Shown piece after piece: positions 3,756 to 27,739 of a stretch of 32,000 nucleotides of DNA. Under the pieces are notes generated by a model. It worked only from the letters and a program-made list of their open reading frames with translations, was not told the DNA's origin and ran no database searches. The stretch covers positions 2,656 to 34,655 of the forward strand of contig NZ_JAECZA010000316.1 in assembly GCF_016056275.1 (NCBI RefSeq), in the 5' to 3' direction. This stretch comes from Dendronalium phyllosphericum CENA369 (GTDB lineage Bacteria; Cyanobacteriota; Cyanobacteriia; Cyanobacteriales; Nostocaceae). Position 1 is the first letter of the stretch, and each line of letters starts with the position of its first letter. Both the position numbers and the translations under genes were made by a program.

Positions 3756-3874
3756 TGGGGTAGAGCGGGTGGCGCAGCGGAGTGTCGGGGGCGGGCTGCC
3801 GAGTTTTGGTCACTCTACGATAATTTCATGCCCGTCCCCGACACCACCCGCTCTAAACGAAGTGTCCCCAGTTC
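3752..3874. repeat. GC-rich long imperfect hairpin element (about 123 bp), identity unknown
   Basis: The left arm is GAACTGGGG..TAGAGCGGGTGG..GTGTCGGGGGCGGGC. It pairs with the right arm GCCCGTCCCCGACAC CACCCGCTCTA..CCCCAGTTC, leaving bulges. The element is much more GC-rich than its flanks, and the IS target duplication overlaps its base. Confidence 0.5.
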
Positions 3875-4203: not shown

Positions 4204-4773
4204 ATGAAAATAAACCGCTTCGGTCGAGCAGAAATCCTTACCCCCGACCAAATTAATCTCCTATTTACCGAGGGGTTTGTCAACCCACGCGATCGGGCTT
4301 TGTTTGGCGTGTGCCTTTATGCTGCCTGCCGGATCAATGAAGCCTGCACTTTGGCACTAAAAGATGTGTTTGGCAGCAACGGTGTCAGAGGCGTGTTAGT
4401 GCTGCGTAGTGTCAACACCAAAGGCAAGCGGGACACAAGGGAAATTCAAGTGCATCCCAAGCTTAGGGAATATTTAGAAGAGTACAACCCGAACCGCCGC
4501 AAGGAGTTCTTGTTTCCGGGGCGGCATGGGTTGGGACACATCCACAAGGTCAGTGCTGATAAAATCCTTAGAGATACCTGTGTGCGGCTGGGCATTGAGG
4601 GGGTTAGTACACACAGCTTCAGGAGGACTGCGTTAACCAGGATGAGCGATGCTGGGATACCGTTGCGCCACATTCAGGAGATATCGGGACATCGGACTTT
4701 GGCAGCTTTGGAGCGTTATTTGGGTGTAACCGAAAAGCAGAAGCAAAACGCGATCTCTGCTTTGGATTTTTGA
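4204..4773 (+). CDS. tyrosine recombinase / site-specific integrase, catalytic domain only (about 190 aa)
   Basis: Catalytic signature in order: Arg in AACRINEA, Lys in NTKGKRDT, HSFRRT (HxxR), SGHRT (His), and LERYL (Tyr). ATG 4204 is preferred over the in-frame TTG 4174 in the ORF track. Confidence 0.85.
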   Translation: MKINRFGRAEILTPDQINLLFTEGFVNPRDRALFGVCLYAACRINEACTLALKDVFGSNGVRGVLVLRSVNTKGKRDTREIQVHPKLREYLEEYNPNRRKEFLFPGRHGLGHIHKVSADKILRDTCVRLGIEGVSTHSFRRTALTRMSDAGIPLRHIQEISGHRTLAALERYLGVTEKQKQNAISALDF

Positions 4774-12687: not shown

Positions 12688-13455
12688 GTGAAATTGACCA
12701 AGATAATCTCACTCTTCAATCAAGCGGGTGGTGTCGCCAAATCGACGACAGCCCAAAATCTTGGCTATCACCTTTCACTACGCCACCATCAAGTATTGTT
12801 AATAGACATAGACCCCCAAGGTTCCCTCACCACGTTCATGGGGTTGGAACCAGCCGATCTAGAAAAAACTATTTACGATGCCTTGATATCGGAAGAAGAG
12901 GAACCTATCCCTATACATCGGGACTTAGACGGCATAGACTTAGCTCCTGCTAACATTTTGCTAGCTAATGCCGAACAAGAACTTATATTTGCTGAACTGC
13001 GAGAATTTCGACTCAAAGAGGTACTCACTCCTCTATTAGATAGCTATGATTTTATTTTGATTGACTGTCCGCCCAGCTTGGGTATTCTTAGTCAAATTAG
13101 CTTGGTTGCCTCTACTCATGTGCTGGTTCCCATTCAGTGTCAGTTCAAGGCATTGAAGGGAACAGACTCGCTGTTGAAAACAGTGGCCAGAGTGCAGCGC
13201 AAGCTGAACCGCTCCCTCAAGATAGCGGGATTCTTCCCCACAATGTACTCTGCTAGTAATTCCTTAGACCAAAGAACCTTAGAATCAATTCGCGATCAGC
13301 TGTCGAGTTTGGCAACGATATTTCCTCCCCTACCTCGTGCTACAGCAGTGGCAGAAGCAGCTGAGTATGGTAAACCTTTGGCATTATGCCCTAATAAAAA
13401 TCCTGCTATTCTCCGCGTCTTTGATGAAATAGCAGAAGCTATGGAGGTTTTATAG
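12688..13455 (+). CDS. parA: ParA-family partition ATPase with atypical Walker A
   Basis: KIISLFNQAGGVAKSTTAQNLG lies at the N-terminus, with ILIDCPPSLG and the usual ParA length. It sits directly upstream of parB. The start is GTG. Confidence 0.85.
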   Translation: MKLTKIISLFNQAGGVAKSTTAQNLGYHLSLRHHQVLLIDIDPQGSLTTFMGLEPADLEKTIYDALISEEEEPIPIHRDLDGIDLAPANILLANAEQELIFAELREFRLKEVLTPLLDSYDFILIDCPPSLGILSQISLVASTHVLVPIQCQFKALKGTDSLLKTVARVQRKLNRSLKIAGFFPTMYSASNSLDQRTLESIRDQLSSLATIFPPLPRATAVAEAAEYGKPLALCPNKNPAILRVFDEIAEAMEVL

Positions 13456-14379
13456 ATGAGTCCCAGACGAGCAAGCCAACCACCTGCTGATAGAAGCAAA
13501 CTCAAGAACGTCGCCCTGTTCAAAGAGGATGATGAGAATTTAGTTCCTACTAAGGTGTCACTGGACAAGATTATTCTCCCCTCTACTCAACCTCGGCGTT
13601 ATTTTGACCCCAAAGCTATGCAATCTTTGGTGGAGTCGGTGAAACGTGAAGGCATCCTCCAGCCTTTATTGGTTAGACCAGTAGGGGATAAGTATGAGTT
13701 GGTGGCAGGAGAGCGCAGATATAGGGCAGCACAAGAAGCAGCTTTAACAGAAGTGCCGATAACGGTGCGGGAGATGTCGGATGAGCAAGCGGTACAGTAT
13801 GCGCTCACCGAGAATCTACAACGGTCAGACTTAAACCCAATAGAAGAAACTGAAGGAACCTTGCAACTGTTAGCGCTGCGATTGGGATGCGAAACAGCAG
13901 CAGTGTCTACTGTACTCTACAGAATGGAGAATGAAGCCAAAGGAAAAATTACCCGAAACGTTTCGGGTAATTCCGAGGCAGAAATAGTAGAAAAAGTGTT
14001 CGCTGAATTGGGAAAGATGAATTGGCAATCATTTGTTCGCACTCGGCTACCACTGTTGAAACTGCCAGAGGAGATTTTATCAGCCCTGCGTGCTGGACAA
14101 ATTGAGTACACCAAGGGCAAGGAGATTGCCAAGCTGACATCGAAAGAAGAAAGAATTGAACTCCTAGAAGCTGCAATTTCGCTATCTTTGTCCCTTTCAG
14201 AAATTCAACAGCAGGTCAAAGCCAAACAACCAGTTGCCACACCTCCACCACTGCAAAGTCGTTTAGAGGCTACATACAAGAAAGCGAAAAGATCAAAGGT
14301 GTGGGACAATCCCCAGAAGCAGAAAAAACTAGAATCTTTGTTGAGAGAGTTGGAAACTTTGATGGCTGATGAGGGGTAG
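13456..14379 (+). CDS. parB: ParB/Spo0J-family partition protein
   Basis: LQPLLVRPVGDKYELVAGERRYRAAQEAAL and ALTENLQRSDLNPIEE are classic ParB box motifs. The ATG immediately follows the parA stop. Confidence 0.9.
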   Translation: MSPRRASQPPADRSKLKNVALFKEDDENLVPTKVSLDKIILPSTQPRRYFDPKAMQSLVESVKREGILQPLLVRPVGDKYELVAGERRYRAAQEAALTEVPITVREMSDEQAVQYALTENLQRSDLNPIEETEGTLQLLALRLGCETAAVSTVLYRMENEAKGKITRNVSGNSEAEIVEKVFAELGKMNWQSFVRTRLPLLKLPEEILSALRAGQIEYTKGKEIAKLTSKEERIELLEAAISLSLSLSEIQQQVKAKQPVATPPPLQSRLEATYKKAKRSKVWDNPQKQKKLESLLRELETLMADEG

Positions 14380-14495: not shown

Positions 14496-14912
14496 CTAAT
14501 TCTTTTCTAAAAATTCTTGAACAGTCAGAATCTCAATTCCTCTCCACGGGTTTAGCACTAGCAGATCATCATCTCCGGTCACAATACATTCTGCTTTTCC
14601 ACTGACAGCTAATTCTAGATATTTGTTATCTTTTGGATCTCGACATTCATTAATCTGTTCAGTTACTTTAATGAACTGTACAGTTTCGGACAAATCCACC
14701 AGGAAATCGTTTCGTTCTTCTGGCGTGATGTACCGATTAAATTTGGGTCGAGCGAGTACCTGTTCTAGCTCTAGCCAAATGGACTCGGACACCAACAATT
14801 CTCCTAAGTCTTGAGCTTTTCTGAGTGCGCGATCTGGTTTGCTCCCTGGTAATAACACCGCGCTAATGATGACATTGACATCACACACAAACCGTCTTTT
14901 ATTCGTCGTCAT
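14496..14912 (-). CDS. PIN-domain toxin of a toxin-antitoxin pair
   Basis: FVCDVNVIISAVL, CRDPKDNKYLELAV and CIVTGDDDLL give the PIN acidic-residue pattern. It overlaps the upstream small ORF by 14 nt. Confidence 0.8.
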   Translation of the reverse strand: MTTNKRRFVCDVNVIISAVLLPGSKPDRALRKAQDLGELLVSESIWLELEQVLARPKFNRYITPEERNDFLVDLSETVQFIKVTEQINECRDPKDNKYLELAVSGKAECIVTGDDDLLVLNPWRGIEILTVQEFLEKN

Positions 14913-15171
14913 TCAAGATTGACTCCAAAATCTCTGGCGTTAAACCTCTTTCTGCGGCTCGTCTGCCAATTTCATCCATTGTTTGCCTGAGCTTGGCAAT
15001 GGCTTCTTGCTTGCTTGTCATTGAAGACTTTAATAACACTGCAATCCGGGATTCAATTTGTTCCCGTTCTTCTTCCGTGGCATTACGGTATGCCTCTGCT
15101 ACCTCAGACGGGACTTTGATAGTAATTTCTTCTTTAGTAATCATGGTCTGTTCGCTTCCATAATTTCTCAT
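14899..15171 (-). CDS. putative antitoxin (small acidic protein)
   Basis: Small ORF overlapping the PIN gene start. An alternative start is ATG 15144 (MITKEEITIKVPSEVAEAY). Confidence 0.6.
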   Translation of the reverse strand: MRNYGSEQTMITKEEITIKVPSEVAEAYRNATEEEREQIESRIAVLLKSSMTSKQEAIAKLRQTMDEIGRRAAERGLTPEILESILNDDE

Positions 15172-15399: not shown

Positions 15400-17550
15400 C
15401 TACAGCCTATTCACAATATTTCCATTAAACCAGGCAATCTTCTTTAAGTCATGACATAACCATTCATAAGCTAGCTCAGTTGCAGAGTTTGGTTTGAATA
15501 CATCTAGTACTTCTGAATTTATAGAAGCGTAAAGCCATGTTGATGCTTCTTTCCTTAGTGATAACAGTTGACTGTTCAAAACAGAAATAGAATAATCACA
15601 GCCTTTTGGAAATAAATTTTCTTTTGTGGGAAAAAAGCACAAGTCTACGCAGCTTTGTTTGCCTTTCGGCAGTGGTTCCCAATAAGATATTATCCAAGGT
15701 TGGTTATTATATGAATTTGGTAAAATAATTTTTCCTACAAAACGCGCTGGCAGCGTTACTGCCGTTGTCAGCCTGGGCGCAAATTTGGAAAAATACGTAT
15801 TAACTAGTTGCTGGTATCCCTCAATAGCACCTTCGTAAACAGCTTTTGCACGAACTAATAATTGTAGTTCGGAGTAGCTCTCCCATATCCATCCATCTGT
15901 AATATCAATATCTGGTTCAGGCCACGGAGAATGCAACTCGGCTTCTCCATCTTGGCGGAGGCTGTTAACTTGAGCTATAAGGTGCTTAAGACCGTAGCAG
16001 TATTCGTACTCGTTTACCCAAGAAGGAATATTCAATGATGACTTAGAAAGACATTCTTCAATTTCACTCAGAGAAATAGGACTATAATTTAACTCCCCAC
16101 GACTAGTAACTATAAGTGCGGTCTGCCAAACAATTTCTTTAAAAATTGATCCGTGGTTGACTGGCAGCATACGCTTTTCCAATAATTGAGATAGTGAACT
16201 ACTAAGCTCATTAAGCGTCAAATTCCAAGCCAAAGCTGATTTATGATTAGCCACCTTAACGCCTGTTAATCCAAACCAATTGGATAATAATTCTGGCTCA
16301 GAAAATGGCGATATAACAATATCAGGCAGATTCTCATCACCACAGTACCAACCAGTTGTCAGATACATTTCGTCTGCGTCAACACCAATTGGTAAAAGCG
16401 TATTATCCTCACGTACTGGTGCAATTAACTTAGAAAGTGGAGCAATACCATCTATCCATGCCTGCATCGCTGTTCGTATTCTTCGCCCAAATTCCAGTGA
16501 TAATGGTAAAGGAACTGATTGTGTGACGTTCCATCTTGTTATTGCCAGCTCTTCCTTGACAATCTCTGAAATAAATGCAGGATGTTTCTGGACTAGTGGC
16601 ACAAGTACCTTTGATACTTGCTCATAACTGTAATTACCAACAAAGATAGCTAGCGGATAGCGCCAACGTTCGAGCCGCTGTGGCTCAAGTTTGAGATCAT
16701 TGGGGTCAATGATGCCAGCAGCTAAACTTTGCGCTGCAAACCATTGTGTTAGAATTGGCAGCGGGAAACCAATAGTTCCTGCATTCTCAACAACTAACCC
16801 CGTATTTAAAAGCATCTGAAATTCTGATGTTGTTCCGCCGATGTCAGTCTTAGAAACTACACCTATACTACAGTCAGTAGCTTGAGCAGCAAGGCATAGT
16901 AGTAATTGCTCAACATTAGAGTTGTTTGCTCTTGCTTTTTCGAGGGAACGTTCAACAAGATTTGACAGTAAATCCCCAGGCGAGGTTGATGCTATTGTGC
17001 CTTGGTTTTTTAAATAGACACCAAGCAATACTGCAAATAAAGGTCGGCGAATAGCATGACGGATGGACTCCGGCCATTGGGAAGAAACATATGGCGGAAT
17101 TGGTTGTTTTGAAATTCTTTCTACAAGAGCATATGCTTCATTCTCTGTAAGTGGAGGAACTTGAACAGCCTCTTCAACTTTAGATAAAGCGGGGATAGCT
17201 CTGCTAGTAATTACTAGGGTAGTTTTTTCCCATGTATTAACAAGAATGCGAGCTTCATTAAGTAAATGTGCTGCTAAGGCGCTTCCTGCTTCGTCAGCCC
17301 CGTCAATGATTGCGGTAACACCTTGTGAGAAGGACTGTCCTAGCTTGCTGATTTCTTCTTCTATAGTTTTTTGTAACTGTCCTGCCACCTGCTGCGCTTT
17401 TAAATCCACAGGTATAGGAGCTGCGGGATTTTTGCGGGCCTGTTTAATTGCATCTTGGAAGAGGCGTTGTGCAAGCAATGACTTACCTACACCAAAATCA
17501 CCGATTAGTATTATTAAAGGGTTTTCATCATTAGGTTGAAACTTAGACAA
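15400..17550 (-). CDS. NACHT-type STAND NTPase (NLR-like) with non-repetitive C-terminal region; frame stays open upstream to 17715
   Basis: Walker A is LIGDFGVGKS and the NACHT-style Walker B is AIIDGADEAG. The ~450-aa C-terminal region has no recognisable repeats. The only start is TTG 17550, and the 55 codons upstream are stop-free and in frame with the 149-aa ORF. Confidence 0.8.
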   Translation of the reverse strand: MSKFQPNDENPLIILIGDFGVGKSLLAQRLFQDAIKQARKNPAAPIPVDLKAQQVAGQLQKTIEEEISKLGQSFSQGVTAIIDGADEAGSALAAHLLNEARILVNTWEKTTLVITSRAIPALSKVEEAVQVPPLTENEAYALVERISKQPIPPYVSSQWPESIRHAIRRPLFAVLLGVYLKNQGTIASTSPGDLLSNLVERSLEKARANNSNVEQLLLCLAAQATDCSIGVVSKTDIGGTTSEFQMLLNTGLVVENAGTIGFPLPILTQWFAAQSLAAGIIDPNDLKLEPQRLERWRYPLAIFVGNYSYEQVSKVLVPLVQKHPAFISEIVKEELAITRWNVTQSVPLPLSLEFGRRIRTAMQAWIDGIAPLSKLIAPVREDNTLLPIGVDADEMYLTTGWYCGDENLPDIVISPFSEPELLSNWFGLTGVKVANHKSALAWNLTLNELSSSLSQLLEKRMLPVNHGSIFKEIVWQTALIVTSRGELNYSPISLSEIEECLSKSSLNIPSWVNEYEYCYGLKHLIAQVNSLRQDGEAELHSPWPEPDIDITDGWIWESYSELQLLVRAKAVYEGAIEGYQQLVNTYFSKFAPRLTTAVTLPARFVGKIILPNSYNNQPWIISYWEPLPKGKQSCVDLCFFPTKENLFPKGCDYSISVLNSQLLSLRKEASTWLYASINSEVLDVFKPNSATELAYEWLCHDLKKIAWFNGNIVNRL

Positions 17551-17715
17551 AGGTGCGCCAATAGATGTATCATTGGCAAGTTCAATCGCTTGGCTGCGAG
17601 TTACACCAGCAGCTTGCCACAGAGATATACACCGACTTATGGATAGTCGATCTAGTTCTTCTAATCTATCAGTGAGGGGATTATACTTTACCCGATCCTG
17701 GTCGGGTGGCTTCAG

Positions 17716-17718
17716 TCA
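17716..17718 (-). other. in-frame TGA between the 149-aa module and the NACHT ORF (candidate readthrough site or nonsense mutation)
   Basis: 17716 minus 17548 is 168, a multiple of 3. None of the 55 intervening triplets is a stop. The next base after TGA is C. Confidence 0.9.
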
Positions 17719-18165
17719 CAAGTTTATAGTTTGATTTTGGATGTTAATACTAGACTTTATTCCTTGAGCTAAGTTCACAACTTTTTCAATGCTATTCGTG
17801 ATCGCGCTTTGGTAATTACTCTGCTTTTCTCTAAGTGCTTTATCCAGTTCAGAATTATGCTTAGTAGCTTCTTTTACATCATTTCCCAAAGCTTCTACTG
17901 CCATCTTAATTTCTTGGTCTGCTTGTGCTGCTTTCTTCACCTCTTCTACTAAGACAGCTTCACCAATATCTTCTTGTCCATCAGGTGGTAGCGCTAAAGG
18001 TTCCACTACTGCTTGTAAAGCATTTGCTGTCTCAGGGAACTTTCTTTTCAAAAGTTGCATTACCTTTTCCGCAGCTTGATCTAAAGCTTTTTCTGTTGAC
18101 CAATCAATAATTTTCCCTGATAGCCAAATGGCAAACGCGATCGCTCCAGTAGTCAGTGGCTCCAT
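17716..18165 (-). CDS. 149-aa helical module protein with hydrophobic N-terminal helix and N/Q/I-rich tail; paralog of 24481-24894
   Basis: MEPLTTGAIAFAIWLSGKIIDWS.. and EDIGEAVLVEEVKKAA..EIKMAVEALGNDV are shared with the other copy. GAGGTAGCAC lies before the ATG. The tail is GIKSSINIQNQTINL. Confidence 0.7.
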   Translation of the reverse strand: MEPLTTGAIAFAIWLSGKIIDWSTEKALDQAAEKVMQLLKRKFPETANALQAVVEPLALPPDGQEDIGEAVLVEEVKKAAQADQEIKMAVEALGNDVKEATKHNSELDKALREKQSNYQSAITNSIEKVVNLAQGIKSSINIQNQTINL

Positions 18166-19194: not shown

Positions 19195-21453
19195 CTAAAG
19201 GGATCTCCCTCTACTCTGTCTTCTTTCTTGTTGCCGCTTTTCTTCTATTATTTGTTGCAATACGCGCTCTGCTTCACGCCAAAAGCCGAGGTCAAGAGAG
19301 TCTACTGACCCTACATTAATCGGTGAATACTCAAGCTCACCTGACTGGTTTCGGTTGACCGCCACTCGAAATATTTCACCTCGTTCATCATGGGTAAACA
19401 CCAATTCTCTACCCTGTTTTTCTAAAGTTGCTCGTTTGAATCTCAGGCTATTTGAGCCACTTTCTCTTAATTGCCAATTGATTAATTCAACAGCAACAGG
19501 CACAGCGAAGGCTAAATATTCGGACTGTAACTGCTGTTTTTGGTCAAGTTGCTGTGATGGTTGTTCTTGCTTTGATGCCAATTGATTGTTAGCGATTAGA
19601 ACTAATGCTTTAGCTTCATCAGCAGTCCATCCGGCTGGACTGCCTAGTATAATTTCTTCAACTTCTTCGACTGACTTATTATCTAATAGCGCCAAGGTAG
19701 CAATTTCTTTGTCTCGGTCAGTCACTAATAAGTTTTGTAAGTCGGTGCTGTAATACTTATATAACTCGGCTCTTAGTTCCTCTTTTAGTTTTGGTTGATC
19801 TGTGGTTAGAGTTGAAGCTTTATTAAGAGCGTTCGCATCCACTGCTTTTTGTGATCTGTGGAGTTGCTCCAAATAAACAATCACTGCAAAGAGGTCATCG
19901 AATGTGGTTTTTCCGGCTTTAAGTTGCTGCCGATATTGAGATAGTTGTTCGGTTAATTGTGGTAACGTTTCAATCAAGGCTGACTCAACTACTGATTGTT
20001 CAATAAAGTTAGCGATTGCATCCACTGCTTTTTGTAATGAAAGTTGTTGCTCCAAATCAGTAATTGCCGTTGACAAGTCGTTTAATGCGATTCTTCCTTC
20101 TTTTAGCTGCTGCTGATGCCCGTGTAATTGTTCTAGAAATTGTGGCAACCCTTCAACCAAGGCTGACTCAACTGCTCTTGAGTCAATATAGTTAACGATT
20201 GCATCCACTGCTTTTTGTGATATAAGTTGTTGCTCCTGTTGAGCAATCACCGCTCTTAGGTCGTCTAATGTAGTTCTTTCTTCTTTTAATTGCTGCTGAT
20301 ACAGTAACAATTGTTCTGTTAATTCTGTTAATTTTGGTAATGTTTCAACTAAGGCTGACTCAACTGCTCTTGAGTCAATATAGTCAACAATTGCATCCAC
20401 TGCTTTTTGTGATGTAAGTTGTTGCTCCTGTTGAGCAATCACTGCTCTTAGGTCGTCGAATGTAGTTCTTTCTGCTTTTAACTGCTGCTGATAAAGTGAC
20501 AGTTGTTCTGTTAATTCTGTTAATTGTGGTAACGTTTCAACTAAGACTGACTCAACTGCTGACTGTTCAATATAGTTAACGATCACATTTATGAGTTCTT
20601 GGTTGTCAACTGCTCGCCCGACATGATTATGCAACAGTTGCTCAATTCGCTCATCATCCCGTTGTGGCTGATAGTCAATTTCTTTATGTTTTTGCAGTCC
20701 AGGCCAAGTATAGGCAGGCCCCAAAGATGTACCGCTAAATTTCTGCCCGTTCCACGAGTAAGAGATGCCTTTACTTTTGCCGTTGCGTGTTACACCGTGA
20801 CGAACTTCTACGCCTTGTAGTTGCAGTCGTTCAATAACTTGGGGCATGATCGGTCTATTTACCGTGGCGCGGTCGATGAGTTCAATTAGTTGTTGTTTGA
20901 TGGGACGTTCTTGTGGCGAGAGGCGATCGCCTTTAATGTATTCAAGCTGCTCTCGCTCTAGTCGTCTTTGTTGCCCAATACTTGGGTTGCGGGTTAATTT
21001 ATCGTGGCTGCTGTGAGTTTGTTGTAACCCGTAATCCCGTTCTAGCTGCCGGATAATACTTTCACTGCGTTTGTAATCCCAGCTATCATGAACTATCTTG
21101 CCGTTGTCCAAACGGATGCGACTAGCGCAGATATGGATGTGGTCGTGCTGAGTGTTGCTGTGTCTGTAGACTACATACTGGTTGCTGTCAAAACCCATCT
21201 CTTCAAGGTAGCGTTGAGCGATTTCGTTCCAGGTTGCGTCATCGAGTCGTTCGCCTTGGGGTAGAGATAGTGATGCGTGGTAAACTACTCTGTCGGCTTC
21301 ATAGTTCAATTGACGCGAGATTTTGAATTCAACAGCCAGGGCGCGGGGGTTTCTGCCGCCCATGTTGCCACCAATAAGTTTGGCTCCTTCTTGAGATTGG
21401 AGATAATTGAGCAGTCCGCGAAATCCTCGCCCCTTAGTCTGGTTGCCAATCAT
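19195..21453 (-). CDS. MOB relaxase (MobA/VirD2-type relaxase domain) with repeat-containing coiled-coil C-terminal half
   Basis: GRGFRGLLNYL carries the catalytic Tyr context, with YHASLSLP and the histidine triad HSNTQHDHIHICASRI. ATG 21453 (MIGNQTKGRG) is preferred; the ORF track uses TTG 21492. Confidence 0.9.
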   Translation of the reverse strand: MIGNQTKGRGFRGLLNYLQSQEGAKLIGGNMGGRNPRALAVEFKISRQLNYEADRVVYHASLSLPQGERLDDATWNEIAQRYLEEMGFDSNQYVVYRHSNTQHDHIHICASRIRLDNGKIVHDSWDYKRSESIIRQLERDYGLQQTHSSHDKLTRNPSIGQQRRLEREQLEYIKGDRLSPQERPIKQQLIELIDRATVNRPIMPQVIERLQLQGVEVRHGVTRNGKSKGISYSWNGQKFSGTSLGPAYTWPGLQKHKEIDYQPQRDDERIEQLLHNHVGRAVDNQELINVIVNYIEQSAVESVLVETLPQLTELTEQLSLYQQQLKAERTTFDDLRAVIAQQEQQLTSQKAVDAIVDYIDSRAVESALVETLPKLTELTEQLLLYQQQLKEERTTLDDLRAVIAQQEQQLISQKAVDAIVNYIDSRAVESALVEGLPQFLEQLHGHQQQLKEGRIALNDLSTAITDLEQQLSLQKAVDAIANFIEQSVVESALIETLPQLTEQLSQYRQQLKAGKTTFDDLFAVIVYLEQLHRSQKAVDANALNKASTLTTDQPKLKEELRAELYKYYSTDLQNLLVTDRDKEIATLALLDNKSVEEVEEIILGSPAGWTADEAKALVLIANNQLASKQEQPSQQLDQKQQLQSEYLAFAVPVAVELINWQLRESGSNSLRFKRATLEKQGRELVFTHDERGEIFRVAVNRNQSGELEYSPINVGSVDSLDLGFWREAERVLQQIIEEKRQQERRQSRGRSL
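19847..20613 (-). repeat. four in-frame tandem coding repeats (210, 192, 183, 183 nt) inside the relaxase gene
   Basis: The marker GCATCCACTGC recurs at 19835, 20018, 20201 and 20393. The protein units are AVD(A/N)..VESALVETLP.LTEQL..YQQQLK....DDL.AVI..QEQQL.SQK. Confidence 0.85.
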
Positions 21454-21832
21454 CGGTTTCCTCATCCTCCTCAGATATGAAGGTTTTGGCAATTTCTCGT
21501 TGGCAGTGCCGCAACAGTTCTAGTAGTTCGTTTAATAGTTCTGGATCTGCTGGCGGTGGCAGTTGCATTTTGATGGCAGTGTTGGCAACTTTGGCCAATT
21601 GGTTGATGTTGTTGCCGATGCGGGAAAGTTCCAAGTAGGTGGCTACTGTAACTCTGCCCAGTCGCGGCGGCGGTGGTGGAATTGGTCGCAGTAACATACA
21701 ACGTCTTGTCAGTTCTGCCAAGCTCATACTCGCGTCTTCTGCTTTTGACCGAACCATCTCATATTCAATTGGGCTGAACCGCGCTTGCAGTCTTTTGGTG
21801 CGGATGAGTGACGACGAAGAACGCTTGGTCAT
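21434..21832 (-). CDS. mobC: MobC-family relaxosome accessory protein
   Basis: RFSPIEYEMVRSKAEDASMSLAELTRRC (RHH-like) and IGNNINQLAKVAN are typical of MobC. It lies immediately upstream of, and overlaps, the relaxase gene. Confidence 0.85.
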   Translation of the reverse strand: MTKRSSSSLIRTKRLQARFSPIEYEMVRSKAEDASMSLAELTRRCMLLRPIPPPPPRLGRVTVATYLELSRIGNNINQLAKVANTAIKMQLPPPADPELLNELLELLRHCQREIAKTFISEEDEETDDWQPD

Positions 21833-24480: not shown

Positions 24481-24894
24481 ATGGAGCCACTAACTGCGGG
24501 TGCGATCGCTTTTACAAGCTGGGTGGTAGGTAAACTGATTGACTGGTCAACAGACAAAACTTTTGATATAGCCTCACAACGGCTGATGCAACTCCTTGTT
24601 GAAAAATCGCCAGACACAGCCAAAAGCTTAACAGCAGCAGCAGAGCGTGCCGCTTTAGCGCCTAATGAACGAGAAGATATTGGGGAAGCAGTCTTGGTAG
24701 AAGAAGTGTCCAAGGCAGCAGCCAAAGATGCAGAAATTAAAGCAGCAGTAGAAGCTTTAGGAAATGATGTCAATCAAGCTGTAAACGAGAATCGTGAAGT
24801 TGAAAAGCGTTTGACAACTGTGATTGAGAATTGGAAAGGGATAAGCATAAAGGGCGGAATTACTACAATCAATAATCCTACCCTTAACTTTTGA
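24481..24894 (+). CDS. 137-aa helical module protein, paralog of 17716-18165
   Basis: MEPLTAGAIAFTSWVVGKLIDWS.. and EDIGEAVLVEEVSKAA..EIKAAVEALGNDV match the other copy. GAGGTAGTAC lies before the ATG. The tail is GISIKGGITTINNPTLNF. Confidence 0.7.
   Translation: MEPLTAGAIAFTSWVVGKLIDWSTDKTFDIASQRLMQLLVEKSPDTAKSLTAAAERAALAPNEREDIGEAVLVEEVSKAAAKDAEIKAAVEALGNDVNQAVNENREVEKRLTTVIENWKGISIKGGITTINNPTLNF
24892..24894 (+). other. in-frame TGA between the 137-aa module and the NB-ARC ORF
   Basis: 24481 and 24988 are in the same frame. The 31 intervening codons have no stop and no ATG/GTG/TTG. The next base after TGA is C. Confidence 0.9.
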
Positions 24895-24987
24895 CTACAG
24901 TCGTCCTCTGGGGAAAGGACAAAGTTAAATCCCCCAAATAATGTTCCTCGTAGTGGTGTAGTTAAGTTCATCGGACGAGAATCAGAA

Positions 24988-26013
24988 TTGGAGCAACTAC
25001 ACACGCAATTGCAGCAAGTAAACTTAGTTTCTATTTCTGCGATAGAAGGCATGGGAGGAGTGGGCAAAACAGAACTCGCTATTCAGTACACTCAGCAGTA
25101 TAAATCGTCTTATGAAGGAGGTATCTGCTGGCTATTTGCTAGAGAATTTAACGTAGGTACTCAGGTTATCGGGTTTGCCCAATCTCAACTGAACCTGAAA
25201 ATTCCAGAAGGATTAGAATTGTATGACCAAGTAGCTTTTTGCTGGCGAAACTGGTGTGAAGGTGATGTTCTGCTGGTATTGGATGATGTGGTTAACTATC
25301 GCCGAGATATCGAACCATACTTGCCGTCTGCTGCATTCACCCGCTTCAAGATAGTGATGACAACTCGGCAAAAGTTTAGTCCACCCGTTCAGTCGCTGTC
25401 TCTAGATGTGCTGTCTCCAGAACAATCTCTAGAATTGTTGACAGTTTTAATTGGGAAAGAACGAGTTCAGCAGGACTTTGAGATAGCCAACACACTTTGT
25501 CATTGGTTAGAGTATCTACCTCTGGGAATCGAACTTGTTGGGCGCTATTTGCTTGAGCGAAAGGAGCTATCGCTTTTCACACTGCTGTTCCGGCTGCAAG
25601 AGAAAGCCTTGGAGCGGCAAGCAATTAGATACGCCGCTCTTAAGCTAAATGAGGAAAATAGTACTTCAACAGGTAGACGGGGGGCAGAAGCTGCGTTTGA
25701 GTTGAGTTGGGTTGAGCTAGATAACAACAGTCAGCACTTAGGTAAGTTATTGAGTGTGTTTGCATCTGCACCAATTCCCTGGTACTTAGCTGAGTCAGCC
25801 GAGCGAAACTATTGTGAAAACTCTAATGGTGGTAACAAGTTTGATGTTGAGGAAATGGAGGAAGCAAGAGCTAAGTTATTAAGATTTCACTTGCTACAAC
25901 TTTTGCAGCAGCAGGAGCAAATCTACCGTCTACATTCGCTAATTCGTGAGTTCTTTAGAAGCAAGTTAGAAGGAGAACCTGATGTTACAACTTCGGACTC
26001 AAAAGCAAATTGA
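24988..26013 (+). CDS. NB-ARC-type STAND NTPase domain (NLR-like); coding sequence evidently begins upstream of the TTG, and the C-terminus is frameshifted into the TPR ORF
   Basis: GMGGVGKTELA (P-loop), VLLVLDDV (Walker B), KIVMTTRQ, and YLPLGIELVGRYL (GLPL-like). The conserved pre-P-loop motif FIGRESELEQL straddles or precedes the TTG start. Confidence 0.8.
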   Translation: MEQLHTQLQQVNLVSISAIEGMGGVGKTELAIQYTQQYKSSYEGGICWLFAREFNVGTQVIGFAQSQLNLKIPEGLELYDQVAFCWRNWCEGDVLLVLDDVVNYRRDIEPYLPSAAFTRFKIVMTTRQKFSPPVQSLSLDVLSPEQSLELLTVLIGKERVQQDFEIANTLCHWLEYLPLGIELVGRYLLERKELSLFTLLFRLQEKALERQAIRYAALKLNEENSTSTGRRGAEAAFELSWVELDNNSQHLGKLLSVFASAPIPWYLAESAERNYCENSNGGNKFDVEEMEEARAKLLRFHLLQLLQQQEQIYRLHSLIREFFRSKLEGEPDVTTSDSKAN

Positions 26014-27739
26014 AGCAAAGAAATTAAAACGTGCTGTGGCTGCTGCAATGGTAGCAATTTCTCAAAAAATACCTGATTCACCAACTCAAGAGGATATTAA
26101 ATTAGTAAAAGATGCAATACCACATTTAGCGGAGGTGGCACAAAATCTAACTGATGTAGTTAGTGATCAAGATTTAATTTGGCCTTTTGTAGGCTTAGGT
26201 AAATTTTATCGGGGACAGAGTTTGTATGCGATCACACAAGCTTGGTGTGAGGAATGCGTAACAGTATTAAAATCCCGCCTTGGGAATGAACATCCTCATG
26301 TAGCAACTAGTCTGAATAATTTAGGAGAAGTCTATTGTTCTCAAGGACGTTACAGCGAAGCCGAACCTTTGCTCATGCAAGCTTTGGTGATGAGGAAACC
26401 CTTGCTAGGAGACGAACACCCAGATGTCGCAACTACTATGAACAATTTGGCATCTCTCTACAGTTCCCAAGGACGGTACACCGAAGCGGAACCTTTGCTC
26501 ATCAAAGCTTTGGCAACGTATAAACACCTGTTGGGGGATAAACACCCTAATGTCGCCATTAGCCTGAATAATTTGGCAAAACTTTACAATTCCCAAGGAC
26601 GGTACACCGAAGCGGAACCTTTGCTCATCGAAGCTTTGGCAACGTATAAACACCGATTTGGGGATGAACACCTTAATGTCGCCATTAGCCTGAGTAATTT
26701 GGCATCTCTCTACAGTTCCCAAGGAAGGTACACCAAAGCCGAACCTTTGTATATCAAAGCTTTGGAAATGACAAAACGCCTGCTGGGGGATGAACACCTT
26801 GATGTCGCATCTAGTATGAACTGTTTGGCTGGACTTTACGACTCTCAGGGACGCTACACTGAAGCTGAACCCTTGTACGTTGAGGCTTTGGTGATGAGAA
26901 AACGCCTGCTGGGGGATGAACACCCTGATGTTGCATCTAGTATGAACAATTTGGCATTTCTCTACAGTTCCCAAGGACGGTACACCAAAGCCGAACCTTT
27001 GTATATCAAAGCTTTGGAAATGACAAAACGTCTGTTGGGGGATGAACACCCTCATGTAGCACAAAGCCTGAATAATTTGGCATCTCTCTACCATTCTCAA
27101 GGACTTTACAGCGAAGCCGAACCTTTGTTCATCCAAGCTTTGGTGATGAGGAAACGCTTGCTGGGAGATAAACACCCTGATACTATATCTAGCCTGAATA
27201 ATTTAGCATTTATCTACCATTCTCAAAGACGTTACAGCGAAGCTGAACCTTTGTTCGTCCTAGCTTTGGTGATGAGAAAACGCCTGTTGGGGGATGAACA
27301 CCCTGATGTTGCAACTAGTCTGAATAATTTGGGAGAACTCTATTATTTTCAAGGACGTTACAGCGAAGCCGAACCTTTGCTCATCGAAGCTTTGGTGATG
27401 TGGAAACGCTTGCTGGGAGATGAACACCCTCATGTGGCACAAAGCCTGAGCAATTTAGCAGAACTCTACCGTTCCCAAAGACGCTATAACGAAGCCGAAC
27501 CTTTATTCATCCAAGCTTTAGCGATGAAAAAACGTTTGCTGGGAGATAAACACCCAGATATTGCATCTAGCCTGAACAATTTGGCAGGACTCTACTATTT
27601 TTTAGGACGTTACAGTGAAGCCGAATTTTTGTTAATCGAGACTTTGGAGATTTTGGAACAAGAGTTAGGAGCAAATCATCCCAATATAATCACGACGCAA
27701 AATAATTTGGAATCTTTGCGTCAACGTCGTCAGTCTTAG
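25982..27739 (+). CDS. TPR-repeat (kinesin-light-chain-like TPR_10/12) sensor region of the NLR, encoded in the +1 frame relative to the NB-ARC ORF
   Basis: Eleven ~42-aa repeats of the form HP.VA.SLNNLA.LY.SQGRY.EAEPL...AL.M.KRLLGDE. The frame is open from 25970 and overlaps the NB-ARC ORF end (26013). Confidence 0.8.
   Translation: MLQLRTQKQIEAKKLKRAVAAAMVAISQKIPDSPTQEDIKLVKDAIPHLAEVAQNLTDVVSDQDLIWPFVGLGKFYRGQSLYAITQAWCEECVTVLKSRLGNEHPHVATSLNNLGEVYCSQGRYSEAEPLLMQALVMRKPLLGDEHPDVATTMNNLASLYSSQGRYTEAEPLLIKALATYKHLLGDKHPNVAISLNNLAKLYNSQGRYTEAEPLLIEALATYKHRFGDEHLNVAISLSNLASLYSSQGRYTKAEPLYIKALEMTKRLLGDEHLDVASSMNCLAGLYDSQGRYTEAEPLYVEALVMRKRLLGDEHPDVASSMNNLAFLYSSQGRYTKAEPLYIKALEMTKRLLGDEHPHVAQSLNNLASLYHSQGLYSEAEPLFIQALVMRKRLLGDKHPDTISSLNNLAFIYHSQRRYSEAEPLFVLALVMRKRLLGDEHPDVATSLNNLGELYYFQGRYSEAEPLLIEALVMWKRLLGDEHPHVAQSLSNLAELYRSQRRYNEAEPLFIQALAMKKRLLGDKHPDIASSLNNLAGLYYFLGRYSEAEFLLIETLEILEQELGANHPNIITTQNNLESLRQRRQS
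26288..27676 (+). repeat. about 11 tandem 126-bp coding repeats (TPR units)
   Basis: The periodic DNA and protein repeat is seen directly. It also generates long spurious antisense ORFs. Confidence 0.85.

What the first reader, a model, noticed from the sequence alone, without database searches (positions are those of the whole stretch)
17548..18165. One in-frame TGA is all that separates a 149-aa module from the NACHT NTPase (minus strand)
The 149-aa ORF ends at TGA (17718-17716), and the NACHT ORF is in the same frame. The 55 codons between them (17715-17551) contain no stop and no ATG/GTG/TTG.

Those codons translate to LKPPDQDRVKYNPLTDRLEELDRLSISRCISLWQAAGVTRSQAIELANDTSIGAP, which reads like real protein. 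The only start available to the NTPase is TTG 17550. It has no purine-rich SD in front of it and lies just 18 residues before the Walker A.

The locus therefore looks like one ~921-codon gene interrupted by a single stop. That means either programmed readthrough or a very recent nonsense mutation, rather than two ordinary genes.
Basis: seen in the sequence. Interest (0 to 1): 0.85.

Follow-up and report, generated by a model that had tools for sequence, protein, structure and literature searches.

The report
Conserved read-through stop in immune genes
The lone TGA between the small protein and the NTPase is not a mutation: it belongs to a ~45-base RNA signal found at more than 50 cyanobacterial loci, which most likely lets ribosomes occasionally read through the stop and fuse a membrane-attacking 'Bell' domain and its amyloid tag to an NLR-like immune sensor.

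Summary
On the minus strand, ATG 18165 opens a 149-codon ORF that ends at TGA 17718-17716. The next 55 codons have no stop and no ATG/GTG/TTG, and the frame runs on to 15400 (921 codons in all).

It is neither a recent nonsense mutation nor an assembly error. The same junction (TGA, then usually CTA or CTG, an 8-nt spacer and a 5-bp hairpin with compensatory changes) recurs at 53 loci, and all 53 have TGA. These include a second copy in this window (24886-24942) and about 30 filamentous cyanobacterial species. The upstream gene is always a small Bell-like protein (MEPLT..., helical, with an N/Q/G-rich tail). The downstream in-frame ORF varies: NB-ARC-TPR, NACHT, this NTPase family, GUN4, CHASE2.

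The 14 codons after TGA are conserved at nucleotide level, third positions included. A normal coding pattern then resumes before any conserved start codon.

Relatives without the element are classical Bell/NLR amyloid-signalling pairs, in which the NLR carries its own copy of the Bell tail motif. Loci with the element lack that copy.

Best reading: programmed UGA readthrough yields abundant free Bell protein and rare Bell-NLR fusion. This is inferred, not shown experimentally, and I found no report of it.

The parts
17716..18165 (-). Bell-like small protein gene. It encodes 149 aa with an N-terminal hydrophobic helix (MEPLTTGAIAFAIW) and an N/Q-rich C-terminal tail (...NLAQGIKSSINIQNQTINL), and ends in TGA.
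   Evidence: The ORF is seen. Forty-two homologs are all 108-177 aa. In the search of 1.84 billion representative proteins, 145 of the 150 best-listed hits (170 in all at E <= 0.001) are under 180 aa. AlphaFold2 predicts an all-alpha fold with a low-confidence tail at residues 126-149. The MEP... start matches the 'MEPIS' motif described for Bell/Hell/Bab domains (bioRxiv 10.1101/2024.11.07.622273).
17716..17718 (-). In-frame UGA followed by C (UGA-CUG): the proposed readthrough codon.
   Evidence: The stop is TGA at 53/53 element-bearing junctions, against 21/44 in homologs without the element (Fisher p = 1.8e-10). The +4 base is C in 45/51. Only the two Bell-like genes among 18 long ORFs in the window end in TGA-C.
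17668..17724 (-). Conserved junction RNA element: stop codon, 8-nt spacer, hairpin, A-rich stretch and a C-run.
   Evidence: Covariance model R1, built without the window sequences, scores it 54.1 bits (E 1.7e-9). Fifty-one further matches in 640 kb of related loci all lie at the 3' end of a Bell-like gene. Nucleotide conservation includes third codon positions. There is no Rfam match.
17690..17707 (-). Hairpin S1. The 5' arm is 17707-17703 (ACCCG) and the 3' arm is 17694-17690 (CGGGU); in this copy an extra A-U pair (17702/17695) is possible. It starts 9 nt after the UGA.
   Evidence: Pairing is 98.8-99.2% across 34 and 48 distinct sequences. Three of five pairs show changes on both sides (C-G to U-A, G-C to C-G/U-A). 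No shuffle in 500 reaches the observed values, and slid controls pair at 14-55%. RNAalifold predicts the same helix independently. It is also the minimum-free-energy fold of the window copy.
17677..17699 (-). Tentative second helix S2, which would make a pseudoknot: loop GGA (17698-17696) with UCC (17680-17678). The consensus is GGGA with UCCC.
   Evidence: Pairing is 91.9-94.1% across loci but there is almost no covariation. In the window copy 3 of 4 pairs form. This helix is an inference.
17551..17715 (-). The 55-codon 'spacer'. Codons 1-14 are the RNA-constrained linker. Codons about 17-55 are the conserved N-terminal segment of the NTPase module (RLxEL..SRxRCIxxWQAAGV...).
   Evidence: Nine invariant residues (S25, R28, C29, W33, A35, G37, A43, L46, G53) are shared with 8 homologs, including five one-ORF proteins with other N-terminal domains (sequences).
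15400..17550 (-). STAND (NACHT-like) NTPase with a ~500-aa C-terminal region of unknown fold, as annotated from TTG 17550 (716 aa, I8752_35920).
   Evidence: P0001 is 100% identical. Homologs of 880-1100 aa carry varied N-terminal effector-type domains. No PDB or NCBIfam match was found.
24481..26010 (+). Second copy of the cassette in the window: a Bell-like gene (137 aa, 51% identical to the first), TGA 24892-24894, CUA, the element at 24886-24942 with a compensated hairpin (GUCCU/AGGAC), then an in-frame NB-ARC.
   Evidence: 68.3 bits. FIGR lies at codon 25 and the P-loop GMGGVGKT at codon 52. The first ATG is the Met inside the P-loop.

Best explanation
The locus is one transcription unit with two protein outputs, governed by a conserved recoding cassette.

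Most ribosomes terminate at UGA 17718-17716 and release the 149-aa Bell-like protein. This has a helical domain whose N-terminal hydrophobic helix is the putative membrane-damaging part, plus an N/Q-rich tail of the bacterial amyloid-signalling (BASS) type.

A minority of ribosomes decode the UGA with a near-cognate tRNA, probably tRNA-Trp. They are helped by the leaky UGA-C context and by an RNA hairpin (possibly a pseudoknot) that begins 9 nt downstream, where it would sit at the ribosome's mRNA entrance. These ribosomes continue in frame and make a ~921-aa fusion: Bell domain, amyloid tail, conserved linker, STAND NTPase and C-terminal sensor region.

The fusion thereby gains the amyloid tail that related NLRs encode for themselves at their own N-terminus. 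When the sensor is triggered and oligomerises, the clustered tails would nucleate the amyloid fold. That fold would convert the excess free Bell protein, leading to membrane damage and abortive cell death.

Shown here: the anatomy, its conservation, hairpin covariation, the coding signature upstream of any start codon, and the complementary distribution with the two-gene architecture.

Inferred: that readthrough occurs, its level, the inserted amino acid, and the amyloid-seeding and cell-death steps.
For: (1) Recurrence. A search with the small protein alone, blind to the junction, returned 80 species-level genome loci. Thirty-five of them end in TGA followed by an in-frame ORF of 45 to more than 1165 codons. 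A DNA search anchored only on the hairpin, not on the stop, returned 15/15 metagenome matches with TGA exactly 9 nt upstream, a 132-159-aa MEP... ORF before it and a long in-frame ORF after it.

(2) Stop identity. It is TGA in 53/53 cassettes, against 21 TGA, 21 TAA and 2 TAG in homologs without the element. The +4 base is C in 45/51. UGA is the leakiest stop and +4 C favours leakiness (PMC5289835; PMC7026636).

(3) RNA constraint. In codons 1-14 after the TGA, pairwise differences at codon positions 1/2/3 are 0.17/0.11/0.15, with no third-position excess. In codons 15-29 they are 0.39/0.26/0.52, a coding pattern.

(4) Hairpin covariation. S1 is 98.8-99.2% paired and 3 of 5 pairs show double changes. 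No shuffle in 500 matches this, and slid controls reach at most 55%. The changes alter amino acids in a coordinated way (P...V to S...T), so the RNA rather than the peptide is being selected.

(5) No conserved start. In 27 distinct NB-ARC-type junctions the first ATG/GTG/TTG is scattered over codons 1-53, and 19/27 fall after the conserved FVGR motif at codon 25. Across those junctions the first ATG commonly sits at codon 50-53, next to the P-loop at 49-52, that is the Met of GMGGVGKT. The Pfam NB-ARC model begins at codon 28 in L065, where the first TTG is at codon 39. In this NTPase family, nine invariant residues lie upstream of the window's TTG.

(6) Functional logic. In 27 of 30 element-less relatives the next gene is an NLR whose N-terminus repeats the Bell tail (for example ENWQGINIKGGKPTIKNNTLNFGSK* followed by MTSENWQGINIKGGKPIIKNNTFIFESPKQNPPNN..FV). 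In 16 of them it overlaps the Bell gene by ATGA. This is the Bell/BASS-NLR pair of bioRxiv 10.1101/2020.01.06.895854. Element-bearing NLRs start at the homologous linker (SP....NPPNN..G..NFVGR) but lack the motif copy. L102 shows both features together...ENWQGINIKGGNPIINNPSFNF-TGA-LQSPEGERVK....

(7) The fused architecture is viable. Rare natural one-ORF proteins exist with Bell-NACHT (P0266, 909 aa) and Bell-GUN4-like (P0249) layouts. The MEPIS motif is reported at the N-terminus of antiphage NLRs. More distant homologs of this NTPase carry other effector domains at the same position.

(8) No promoter-like or terminator-like site lies between the TGA and the TTG on the minus strand.

(9) The signal has the same layout as viral readthrough signals: UGA-CUA/CGG plus a stem after an 8-9-nt spacer, or the MuLV 8-nt spacer plus pseudoknot (PMC3159437).
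Against: No expression, ribosome-profiling or proteomic data were available, so readthrough is inferred from conservation alone.

Single-sequence folding energies of the element are no better than those of shuffled sequences (z from -0.2 to -1.2). Support for the hairpin therefore rests on covariation. The pseudoknot helix S2 has almost none.

The loci share ancestry, so the counts (53/53, Fisher p) overstate independence.

To my knowledge, structure-stimulated readthrough of this kind has not been described for cellular bacterial genes, and a 5-bp hairpin is a weak obstacle for a ribosome.

Some relatives have an in-frame start soon after the TGA: GTG at codon 1 in L078, codons 6-11 in L042, L047, L052 and L066, and ATG at codons 22-23 in L001 and L103. 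Independent initiation could therefore supply much of the NTPase there.

Several copies are decaying. L094 has a second stop, L096 has a broken P-loop, and the window's second copy has NB-ARC and TPR in different frames.

The tail of this particular 149-aa protein is only loosely similar to the NWQGINIKGG...NF motif, and its amyloid propensity was not tested.
Confidence: 0.7

Rival explanations
1. These are two ordinary, separately translated genes. The NTPase/NLR initiates on its own at an internal or non-canonical codon. The conserved element is a regulatory RNA, for example one controlling coupling, mRNA stability or downstream-gene expression, rather than a recoding signal.
For: The small protein family is overwhelmingly stand-alone. 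Some relatives have early in-frame starts: L078 at codon 1, and L001 and L103 with ATG at codons 22-23. Public annotation treats them as two genes.
Against: The frame is preserved across unrelated downstream domain families. The coding signature and invariant residues lie upstream of every available start in many loci, including this one. The commonest codon after the stop is CUA, which differs from AUG at two positions and is not a plausible initiator. The exclusive use of UGA is unexplained. NLRs in this arrangement lack the motif copy that their two-gene relatives carry.
Confidence: 0.17
2. The conserved junction is chiefly a DNA-level homology or recombination site. It would allow the Bell module to be swapped onto different sensor genes, as conserved pre-toxin motifs do in polymorphic toxin loci. 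The stop would be incidental.
For: The same ~45-nt block joins non-alignable Bell tails to many unrelated downstream modules, including NB-ARC, NACHT, nSTAND, GUN4, CHASE2 and CHAT. Two copies lie on one plasmid-like contig.
Against: Compensatory changes that preserve base pairing point to a folded single strand, not to duplex homology. This rival does not explain the invariant UGA, the +4 C or the preserved frame. No recombinase is consistently adjacent, although this was not examined systematically. It may well be a secondary consequence rather than an alternative.
Confidence: 0.08
3. The UGA encodes selenocysteine and the downstream hairpin is a SECIS element.
For: There is an in-frame UGA with a hairpin a few nucleotides downstream, which is the bacterial SECIS layout.
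Against: [quoted passage not shown] Rfam gives no SECIS or any other hit in the window. The position is a linker between domains, not a redox site. No Cys-containing homologs occupy that position, and one-ORF relatives lack the segment altogether.
Confidence: 0.02
4. The TGA is a recent nonsense mutation (a pseudogene) or a sequencing/assembly error in an originally fused gene.
For: A single stop sits in an otherwise open 921-codon frame. Some related copies are clearly decaying.
Against: The same TGA with the same context occurs in 53 independent assemblies from about 30 species and in metagenomes, with both flanking ORFs intact. No sense-codon variant of the junction was found among the listed relatives of the small protein (the 150 best of 170 hits; sequences of three longer ones).
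Confidence: 0.01

Closest known systems
Bell-domain / BASS amyloid-signalling gene pairs next to NLR-like NTPases in filamentous bacteria (Dyrka et al., bioRxiv 10.1101/2020.01.06.895854)
   Same: Both have a small protein with a hydrophobic N-terminal helix, an acidic residue at position 2 and a helical domain, followed by a short N/Q/G-rich C-terminal motif. Both place an NB-ARC or NACHT gene immediately downstream on the same strand, and both are restricted to filamentous cyanobacteria. Close homologs of the window's small protein form exactly such pairs.
   Different: In the described pairs the NLR has its own start codon and its own N-terminal copy of the motif. Here the NLR has neither. 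An in-frame UGA with a conserved RNA element sits where the motif copy would join the linker. The paper does not mention stop codons or readthrough.
Bab/Agp amyloid-signalling antiphage system, and NLRs with an N-terminal 'MEPIS' Bell-like motif such as Avast2 and bNACHT02/11/23 (bioRxiv 10.1101/2024.11.07.622273)
   Same: The window protein has the MEP... N-terminal helix. The Bell-type executioner is either separate from the sensor (Bab/Agp) or fused to the N-terminus of an NLR (Avast2, bNACHT).
   Different: The window locus would produce both forms, free and fused, from one ORF. No sequence or structural match to a solved Bell-type structure was obtained here: the PDB fold search gave nothing below E = 1.
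Viral type II readthrough signals (alphavirus, tobravirus, furovirus: UGA-CGG or UGA-CUA plus a stem after an 8-9-nt spacer) and the MuLV gag-pol signal (8-nt spacer plus pseudoknot) (PMC3159437)
   Same: Both have a UGA followed by C (CUA or CUG), an 8-nt spacer, and a base-paired element supported by compensatory changes and by suppressed synonymous variation. Both yield an abundant short product and a rare C-terminally extended one.
   Different: Those signals act on eukaryotic ribosomes and eRF1, and their stems are 10-12 bp or longer, or form a well-defined pseudoknot. Here the host is bacterial (RF2), the stem is only 5-6 bp, and the pseudoknot is unproven.
Coliphage Q-beta coat/A1 readthrough (recalled from my own knowledge, not checked here)
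   Same: In a bacterial translation system, a leaky UGA yields a minor extended protein alongside a major short one.
   Different: Q-beta is a phage gene with no conserved downstream structure that I know of. The present case is a plasmid or chromosomal gene family with a dedicated RNA element.
Modular STAND NTPases with swappable N-terminal effector domains (homologs P0008-P0090 of this NTPase)
   Same: The core is the same: linker, P-loop NTPase and a ~500-aa C-terminal region. An effector-type module is placed N-terminally, including DUF4062 and trypsin-like peptidase domains named. TIR, PNP_UDP and metallophosphatase are my readings of the Pfam accessions from memory.
   Different: In those proteins the effector is fused by ordinary sense codons. 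In the cyanobacterial subgroup (window, L001, L102, L103) the effector position is occupied by the Bell module behind a UGA.

Membership tests
Bell domain + BASS motif protein (Dyrka 2020) | N-terminal hydrophobic alpha-helix with a negatively charged residue at position 2 or 3 ('MEPIS'-type start) | tested here: met
   The protein starts MEPLTTGAIAFAIWL. M1, P3, T5, G7, A8 and I9 are invariant or at least 90% conserved in 42 homologs. The feature is as described.
Bell domain + BASS motif protein (Dyrka 2020) | A ~100-aa all-helical bundle cupping helix 1 | tested here: inconclusive
   AlphaFold2 predicts six helices and no strands, with mean pLDDT 69.7. No PDB match has E < 1, including any Bell-type structure. 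No Bell HMM was available, and Pfam, NCBIfam and PADLOC gave no significant hit.
Bell domain + BASS motif protein (Dyrka 2020) | A short C-terminal motif that forms amyloid | not testable with these tools
   The tail at residues 126-149 is N/Q-rich with pLDDT < 50. Homologs carry NWQGINIKGG..T..N.T.NF. Amyloid formation needs experiment.
Bell/BASS-NLR two-gene amyloid-signalling pair | The adjacent NLR-like protein carries the same motif at its own N-terminus | tested here: not met
   The window's NTPase has no copy of the tail motif after the TGA or after TTG 17550. In contrast, 27 of 30 element-less relatives do carry one. The motif would reach the NTPase only through readthrough.
Bell/BASS-NLR two-gene amyloid-signalling pair | A collinear, closely spaced STAND NTPase gene downstream | tested here: met
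   The NTPase is on the same strand and in the same frame, with 0-165 nt between the ORFs. Of 36 downstream ORFs scanned, 29 match NB-ARC and 5 match NACHT.
Programmed stop-codon readthrough signal (type II-like) | A specific leaky stop codon and 3' context conserved across homologs | tested here: met
   UGA occurs in 53/53 cassettes, +4 C in 45/51, and the next codon is CUA 26 times and CUG 15 times. The window has UGA-CUG.
Programmed stop-codon readthrough signal (type II-like) | A 3' RNA structure about 8 nt from the stop, supported by covariation and reduced synonymous variation | tested here: met
   S1 starts at nucleotide 9, is 98.8-99.2% paired, and 3 of 5 pairs show changes on both sides. 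There is no third-position excess in codons 1-14. The pseudoknot helix S2 remains inconclusive.
Programmed stop-codon readthrough signal (type II-like) | The downstream frame is open and evolves as coding sequence without its own conserved start | tested here: met
Programmed stop-codon readthrough signal (type II-like) | The extended protein is demonstrably made | not testable with these tools
   This needs a reporter assay, western blot, mass spectrometry or Ribo-seq.
NACHT NTPase (Pfam PF05729) | Score at or above the Pfam gathering threshold | tested here: not met
   The score is 25.5 bits against a 26.7-bit cut-off (E 1.4e-5), although precomputed Pfam lists PF05729 for P0001. Walker A (GDFGVGKS) is present. 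The protein is best called a NACHT-like STAND NTPase.
Bacterial selenoprotein gene (UGA + SECIS) | Sec-decoding machinery in the lineage and a SECIS-type element | tested here: not met
   There is no Rfam hit at gathering thresholds. [quoted passage not shown] The source genome itself could not be scanned.

The most novel reading that the evidence does not exclude
Filamentous cyanobacteria carry a dedicated, portable recoding cassette: a Bell-type executioner with its amyloid tag, then UGA-C, an 8-nt spacer and an RNA hairpin or pseudoknot. The cassette can be placed in front of almost any sensor module, including NB-ARC-TPR, NACHT, other STAND NTPases, GUN4, CHASE2 and CHAT. Structure-stimulated stop-codon readthrough would then set a fixed ratio of abundant free executioner to rare executioner-sensor fusion. 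The activated fusion would seed amyloid conversion of the free pool. If correct, this would be the first widespread programmed readthrough signal in cellular bacterial genes. It would also be a third architecture for NLR-amyloid immunity, between the two-gene and fused forms.
Probability: 0.5. Interest if true: 0.92.

Novelty: new variant of a known kind. Interest (0 to 1): 0.85.

Why it matters
Programmed readthrough with a dedicated RNA stimulator is textbook biology for eukaryotic viruses. Apart from selenocysteine insertion and phage Q-beta, it is essentially unknown for bacterial genes. A conserved, compact (~45 nt), covarying element present in dozens of species would give a directly testable bacterial model.

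It would also change how bacterial NLR/amyloid immune systems are read. Dozens of 'orphan' Bell proteins, and NLRs with 'missing' N-termini or odd TTG/GTG starts, would turn out to be single two-output genes. The stoichiometry problem of a prion-like signalling pair, many effectors and few nucleators, would be solved at the ribosome.

There is a practical consequence too. Current annotation mis-sets the starts of these NTPases: codons 22, 23, 38 and 56 after the stop in four orthologous loci. Motif-pair searches for amyloid signalling would miss this class entirely.

Tried and rejected
- **Recent nonsense mutation or assembly error.** Rejected because of conservation in 53 loci.
- **+1 frameshift at the RF2-like xxU-UGA-C.** Rejected because the +1 frame closes at the conserved GGG-UAA nine codons later, and the conserved protein is in frame 0 (sequences).
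- **Reinitiation at the codon after the stop.** Rejected as the general mechanism because that codon is most often CUA.
- **A helix pairing the stop codon itself (UGACU) with AGUYA, as suggested by the MFE fold of the consensus.** It is 86.5% paired with no compensatory change, so it is not supported.
- **Selenocysteine.** No Rfam hit, and the Sec trait is not detected in the phylum.
- **Known RNA family.** Rfam gives 0 hits in the window.
- **Cyanophage origin.** The hairpin pattern gives 0 hits in viral contigs.
- **Suppressor tRNA nearby.** There are no tRNA genes in the window.
- **Structural identification of the small protein.** The PDB fold search gave nothing below E = 1; the weak top hits were Bcl-xL and apolipophorin helical bundles.
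- **Identification of the NTPase C-terminal region.** PDB sequence search and NCBIfam were empty.
- **Strict consensus search in the window.** With up to 3 mismatches it found nothing because both window copies diverge by 4 or more positions. The covariance model recovered both.
- **Literature search.** Searches for readthrough or recoding in Bell/BASS/NLR or cyanobacterial NLR contexts found no report. This covers only the held library.

Full report
**1. The observation**

On the minus strand, ATG 18165 opens a 149-codon ORF that ends at TGA 17718-17716. The same frame continues for 55 codons (LKPPDQDRVKYNPLTDRLEELDRLSISRCISLWQAAGVTRSQAIELANDTSIGAP) with no stop and no ATG/GTG/TTG. It reaches TTG 17550 and runs to the stop at 15400, giving 149 + 1 + 771 codons.

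No purine-rich Shine-Dalgarno precedes the TTG, and the Walker A motif GDFGVGKS starts 17 residues after it. Both ORFs are annotated separately in Nostocaceae cyanobacterium CENA369, as I8752_35925 and I8752_35920. The 'NACHT' assignment is marginal: 25.5 bits against a 26.7-bit threshold.

**2. The same junction recurs**

The nearest relative of the NTPase (P0002, 59% identity) sits in locus L001. There it lies behind a 141-aa ORF that also ends in TGA, followed by CTG and an in-frame peptide. That peptide, LESPERDRAKLNPPTERLKELAMLSRGRC..., is alignable with the window's spacer.

Two more relatives with upstream sequence show the same arrangement: L102 (Coleofasciculus sp. FACHB-542) and L103.

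A paralog of the small protein lies 7 kb away in the same window (24481-24894, plus strand). It also ends in TGA, followed by CTA, and the frame continues into a different NTPase, an NB-ARC with GMGGVGKT. Homologs of the small protein in L003 and L007 show the same layout in front of a NACHT/NCC-H protein and a GUN4-domain protein.

**3. Unbiased sampling**

I searched one genome per species using only the small-protein alignment. This gave 80 loci, almost all from filamentous cyanobacteria (Nostoc, Anabaena, Calothrix, Scytonema, Brasilonema, Stigonema, Fischerella, Rhizonema, Lyngbya, Microseira, Floridaenema, Aerosakkonema). They fall into two classes.

- **Class 1 (35 loci).** The ORF ends in TGA, most often followed by CTA or CTG. 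The same frame stays open for 45 to more than 1165 codons, beginning with a peptide like LQSPERERVKSNPP.
- **Class 2.** The ORF ends ...NFGSK with TGA or TAA, and the frame closes within a few codons.

A converse search was anchored only on the hairpin sequence and placed no constraint on the stop. It returned 15 metagenome matches. All 15 have TGA exactly 9 nt upstream, a 132-159-aa MEP... ORF before it and a long in-frame ORF after it. Viral contigs gave nothing.

A covariance model built from 32 junctions, excluding the window, finds exactly two matches in the window: 17668-17724 and 24886-24942. It finds 51 matches in 640 kb of related loci, every one at the 3' end of a Bell-like gene and none in class 2 loci.

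All 53 cassettes use TGA, compared with 21 TGA, 21 TAA and 2 TAG in the element-less homologs (Fisher p = 1.8e-10). The +4 base is C in 45/51. Shared ancestry inflates these statistics, but the direction is unambiguous.

**4. An RNA element, not just a peptide**

The 42 nt after the TGA have the consensus CUACAGUCGCCCGAACGGGAACGGGUAAAGUYAAAUCCCCCA. They are conserved even at third codon positions.

In 27 distinct NB-ARC-type junctions I measured pairwise differences at codon positions 1/2/3:
- codons 1-14 after the stop: 0.17/0.11/0.15, with no third-position excess;
- codons 15-29: 0.39/0.26/0.52, a coding pattern;
- the Bell tails just upstream: 0.56-0.64 at all positions, essentially unalignable.

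Nucleotides 9-13 pair with nucleotides 22-26. This helix is 98.8% paired in 34 sequences and 99.2% in 48 distinct sequences. Three of its five pairs show changes on both sides: C-G to U-A in 5-6 sequences, and G-C to C-G or U-A. No shuffle in 500 reaches the observed values, and shifted controls pair at only 14-55%. RNAalifold finds the same helix independently.

The window's second copy carries a doubly compensated version (GUCCU/AGGAC). The copy under study has A-U at the closing pair plus one extra pair. These substitutions change the encoded amino acids in a coordinated way (Pro...Val to Ser...Thr), which indicates that the base pairing is what selection maintains.

A second helix, loop GGGA with the downstream UCCC, would make an H-type pseudoknot with an A-rich third loop. 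It is 92-94% paired but barely covaries, so it remains a hypothesis. A helix involving the stop codon itself has no covariation support. Single-sequence folding energies are not distinguishable from shuffles. Rfam has no match.

**5. The downstream ORFs appear to depend on the upstream frame**

Of 36 downstream ORFs, 29 match NB-ARC, 5 match NACHT and 16 carry TPR arrays. Others are nSTAND3/5, GUN4, CHASE2 or CHAT-TPR.

In the NB-ARC class the conserved FVGR motif sits at codon 25 after the stop and the P-loop at codon 52. The first ATG commonly sits at codon 50-53, next to the P-loop, that is the Met of GMGGVGKT. The first ATG/GTG/TTG is scattered over codons 1-53, and in 19 of 27 junctions it lies after FVGR. 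The Pfam NB-ARC model starts at codon 28 in L065, whose first TTG is at codon 39.

For the window's own family, I aligned the post-stop region with eight homologs. Five of them are one-ORF proteins with unrelated N-terminal domains. Nine invariant residues (S25, R28, C29, W33, A35, G37, A43, L46, G53) all lie upstream of TTG 17550.

The first start codon falls at codon 22, 23, 38 or 56 in the four orthologous loci, so none is conserved. No promoter-like or terminator-like site lies between the stop and the TTG on the minus strand. The +1 frame closes after nine codons at the conserved GGG-UAA, which excludes an RF2-type +1 shift.

**6. What the small protein is**

All 42 close homologs are 108-177 aa. 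In a profile search of 1.84 billion representative proteins, 145 of the 150 best-listed hits (170 in all at E <= 0.001) are under 180 aa.

The homologs start MEP[LI]T.GAIA..., with a hydrophobic helix and an acidic residue at position 2. They are predicted all-helical, with a low-confidence N/Q/G-rich tail.

This matches the published description of the Bell domain with a C-terminal bacterial amyloid signalling sequence (BASS), and the 'MEPIS' motif shared by Bell, Hell and Bab domains and several antiphage NLRs (10.1101/2020.01.06.895854 and 10.1101/2024.11.07.622273). I could not run a Bell HMM, and the PDB fold search was uninformative. Membership therefore rests on these sequence features and on the next point.

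**7. Class 2 gives the functional logic**

In 27 of 30 class 2 loci the next gene is an NLR whose N-terminus repeats the Bell tail. In 16 of them it overlaps the Bell gene by ATGA. An example is ...ENWQGINIKGGKPTIKNNTLNFGSK* followed by MTSENWQGINIKGGKPIIKNNTFIFESPKQNPPNNILYYGSDNFV.... This is the canonical Bell/BASS-NLR amyloid-signalling pair.

Class 1 NLRs begin at the homologous linker (SP....NPPNN..G..NFVGR) but have no motif copy. The UGA sits exactly where the motif would be attached. L102 shows the same NWQGINIKGG...NF motif immediately before the UGA.

Readthrough would therefore create an NLR carrying the motif at the same position as in class 2, with the Bell domain in front. Natural one-ORF proteins with Bell-NACHT (P0266) and Bell-GUN4-like (P0249) layouts exist. 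MEPIS-type N-termini are also reported on antiphage NLRs, so the fused architecture is viable.

**8. Mechanism proposed**

Most ribosomes terminate at UGA-C and release free Bell-BASS protein. A minority read through. UGA is the leakiest stop, and +4 C favours leakiness (PMC5289835, PMC7026636). The hairpin begins after an 8-nt spacer. This is the spacing seen in alphavirus, tobravirus and furovirus UGA-CGG/CUA signals and in the MuLV pseudoknot, where the structure is thought to act at the mRNA entrance channel (PMC3159437).

The ~921-aa product would be the sensor. On activation and oligomerisation, its clustered tails would nucleate the amyloid fold and recruit the free protein, whose N-terminal helix would damage the membrane. 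The readthrough efficiency would fix the effector-to-nucleator ratio, as in Gag/Gag-Pol or Q-beta coat/A1.

Everything after 'a minority read through' is inference.

**9. Rivals**

- **Independent initiation with a purely regulatory RNA** remains possible, especially where an early in-frame start exists. It does not explain the invariant UGA, the preserved frame across unrelated downstream families, the coding constraint upstream of starts, or the missing motif copy.
- **A DNA-level recombination role** for the conserved block may be a by-product, since the modules are clearly shuffled. It does not explain the base-pair covariation.
- **Selenocysteine** is unlikely. The Sec trait is not detected in Cyanobacteria (PMC1794560), there is no SECIS hit, and the position is a linker.
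- **A nonsense mutation or assembly error** is excluded.

**10. Novelty**

The components are known: Bell/BASS-NLR systems and structure-stimulated UGA readthrough. I found no report of their combination, nor of any such readthrough element in bacterial cellular genes. The two Bell/BASS papers contain no mention of stop codons or readthrough, and five full-text searches found nothing. The library is incomplete, so prior description elsewhere cannot be excluded.

Noticed in passing
window 24481-27739 (+): A second copy of the cassette consists of a Bell-like gene (137 aa), TGA 24892-24894, the element and an in-frame NB-ARC (24895-26010). Its TPR array (ORF 25982-27739, TPR_12 E 1.7e-200) is in a different frame from the NB-ARC. 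This implies a frameshift: a decaying copy, an assembly error or a further recoding event.
   Followed up: partly
window 12688-14379, 19195-21492, 27957-30947: The window looks like a mobilisable plasmid. It has ParA (AAA_31/CbiA), an adjacent ParB-like ORF, a MobA/VirD2 relaxase and a Prim-Pol + DUF3987 primase-helicase-like protein. Both Bell cassettes are therefore carried on a mobile replicon.
   Followed up: partly
window 19195-21492 (-): The C-terminal half of the relaxase ORF contains about four tandem ~60-aa repeats (...AVESALVETLPKLTELTEQL.LYQQQLKEERTTLDDLRAVIAQQEQQL.SQKAVDAIV.YI...). They are visible in the translation.
   Followed up: no
L010-L083 (class 2 loci), e.g. L012 around 3900: Element-less homologs are textbook Bell/BASS-NLR pairs. 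In 16 of them the ATG of the NLR overlaps the Bell stop as ATGA, and the ~22-aa tail motif is duplicated almost verbatim on the NLR N-terminus.
   Followed up: yes
L094 (around 4644-4700, -) and L096 (around 3776-3832, -): Some cassettes are decayed. L094 reads TGA CTG TAG, with a second stop two codons later. L096 has a broken P-loop (GMGEWVKRN*).
   Followed up: no
P0005, P0006, P0009, P0007: Public gene calls for this NTPase family start at inconsistent places. Some start in the middle of the conserved WQAAGV..EAI segment and one starts after the Walker A (P0007, 673 aa). This suggests systematic start mis-annotation caused by the in-frame stop.
   Followed up: partly
L047 3918-6311; L060 2097-3395; L070 3900-5159; L008 3939-5021: The Bell + TGA junction also precedes modules that are not NB-ARC/NACHT: nSTAND1-WD40 (its post-stop sequence is divergent and the model does not recognise it), CHASE2, CHAT-TPR and CarboxypepD_reg-GUN4.
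   Followed up: partly
window 5044-7092 (+): A 682-aa protein has two GHKL ATPase-type domains: HATPase_c_3 at the N-terminus and HATPase_c at the C-terminus. It may be another defence-type gene on the same plasmid.
   Followed up: no
window 14496-15171 (-): Two small ORFs of 138 aa and 90 aa overlap just downstream of the NTPase, laid out like a toxin-antitoxin pair. This was not tested against any library.
   Followed up: no
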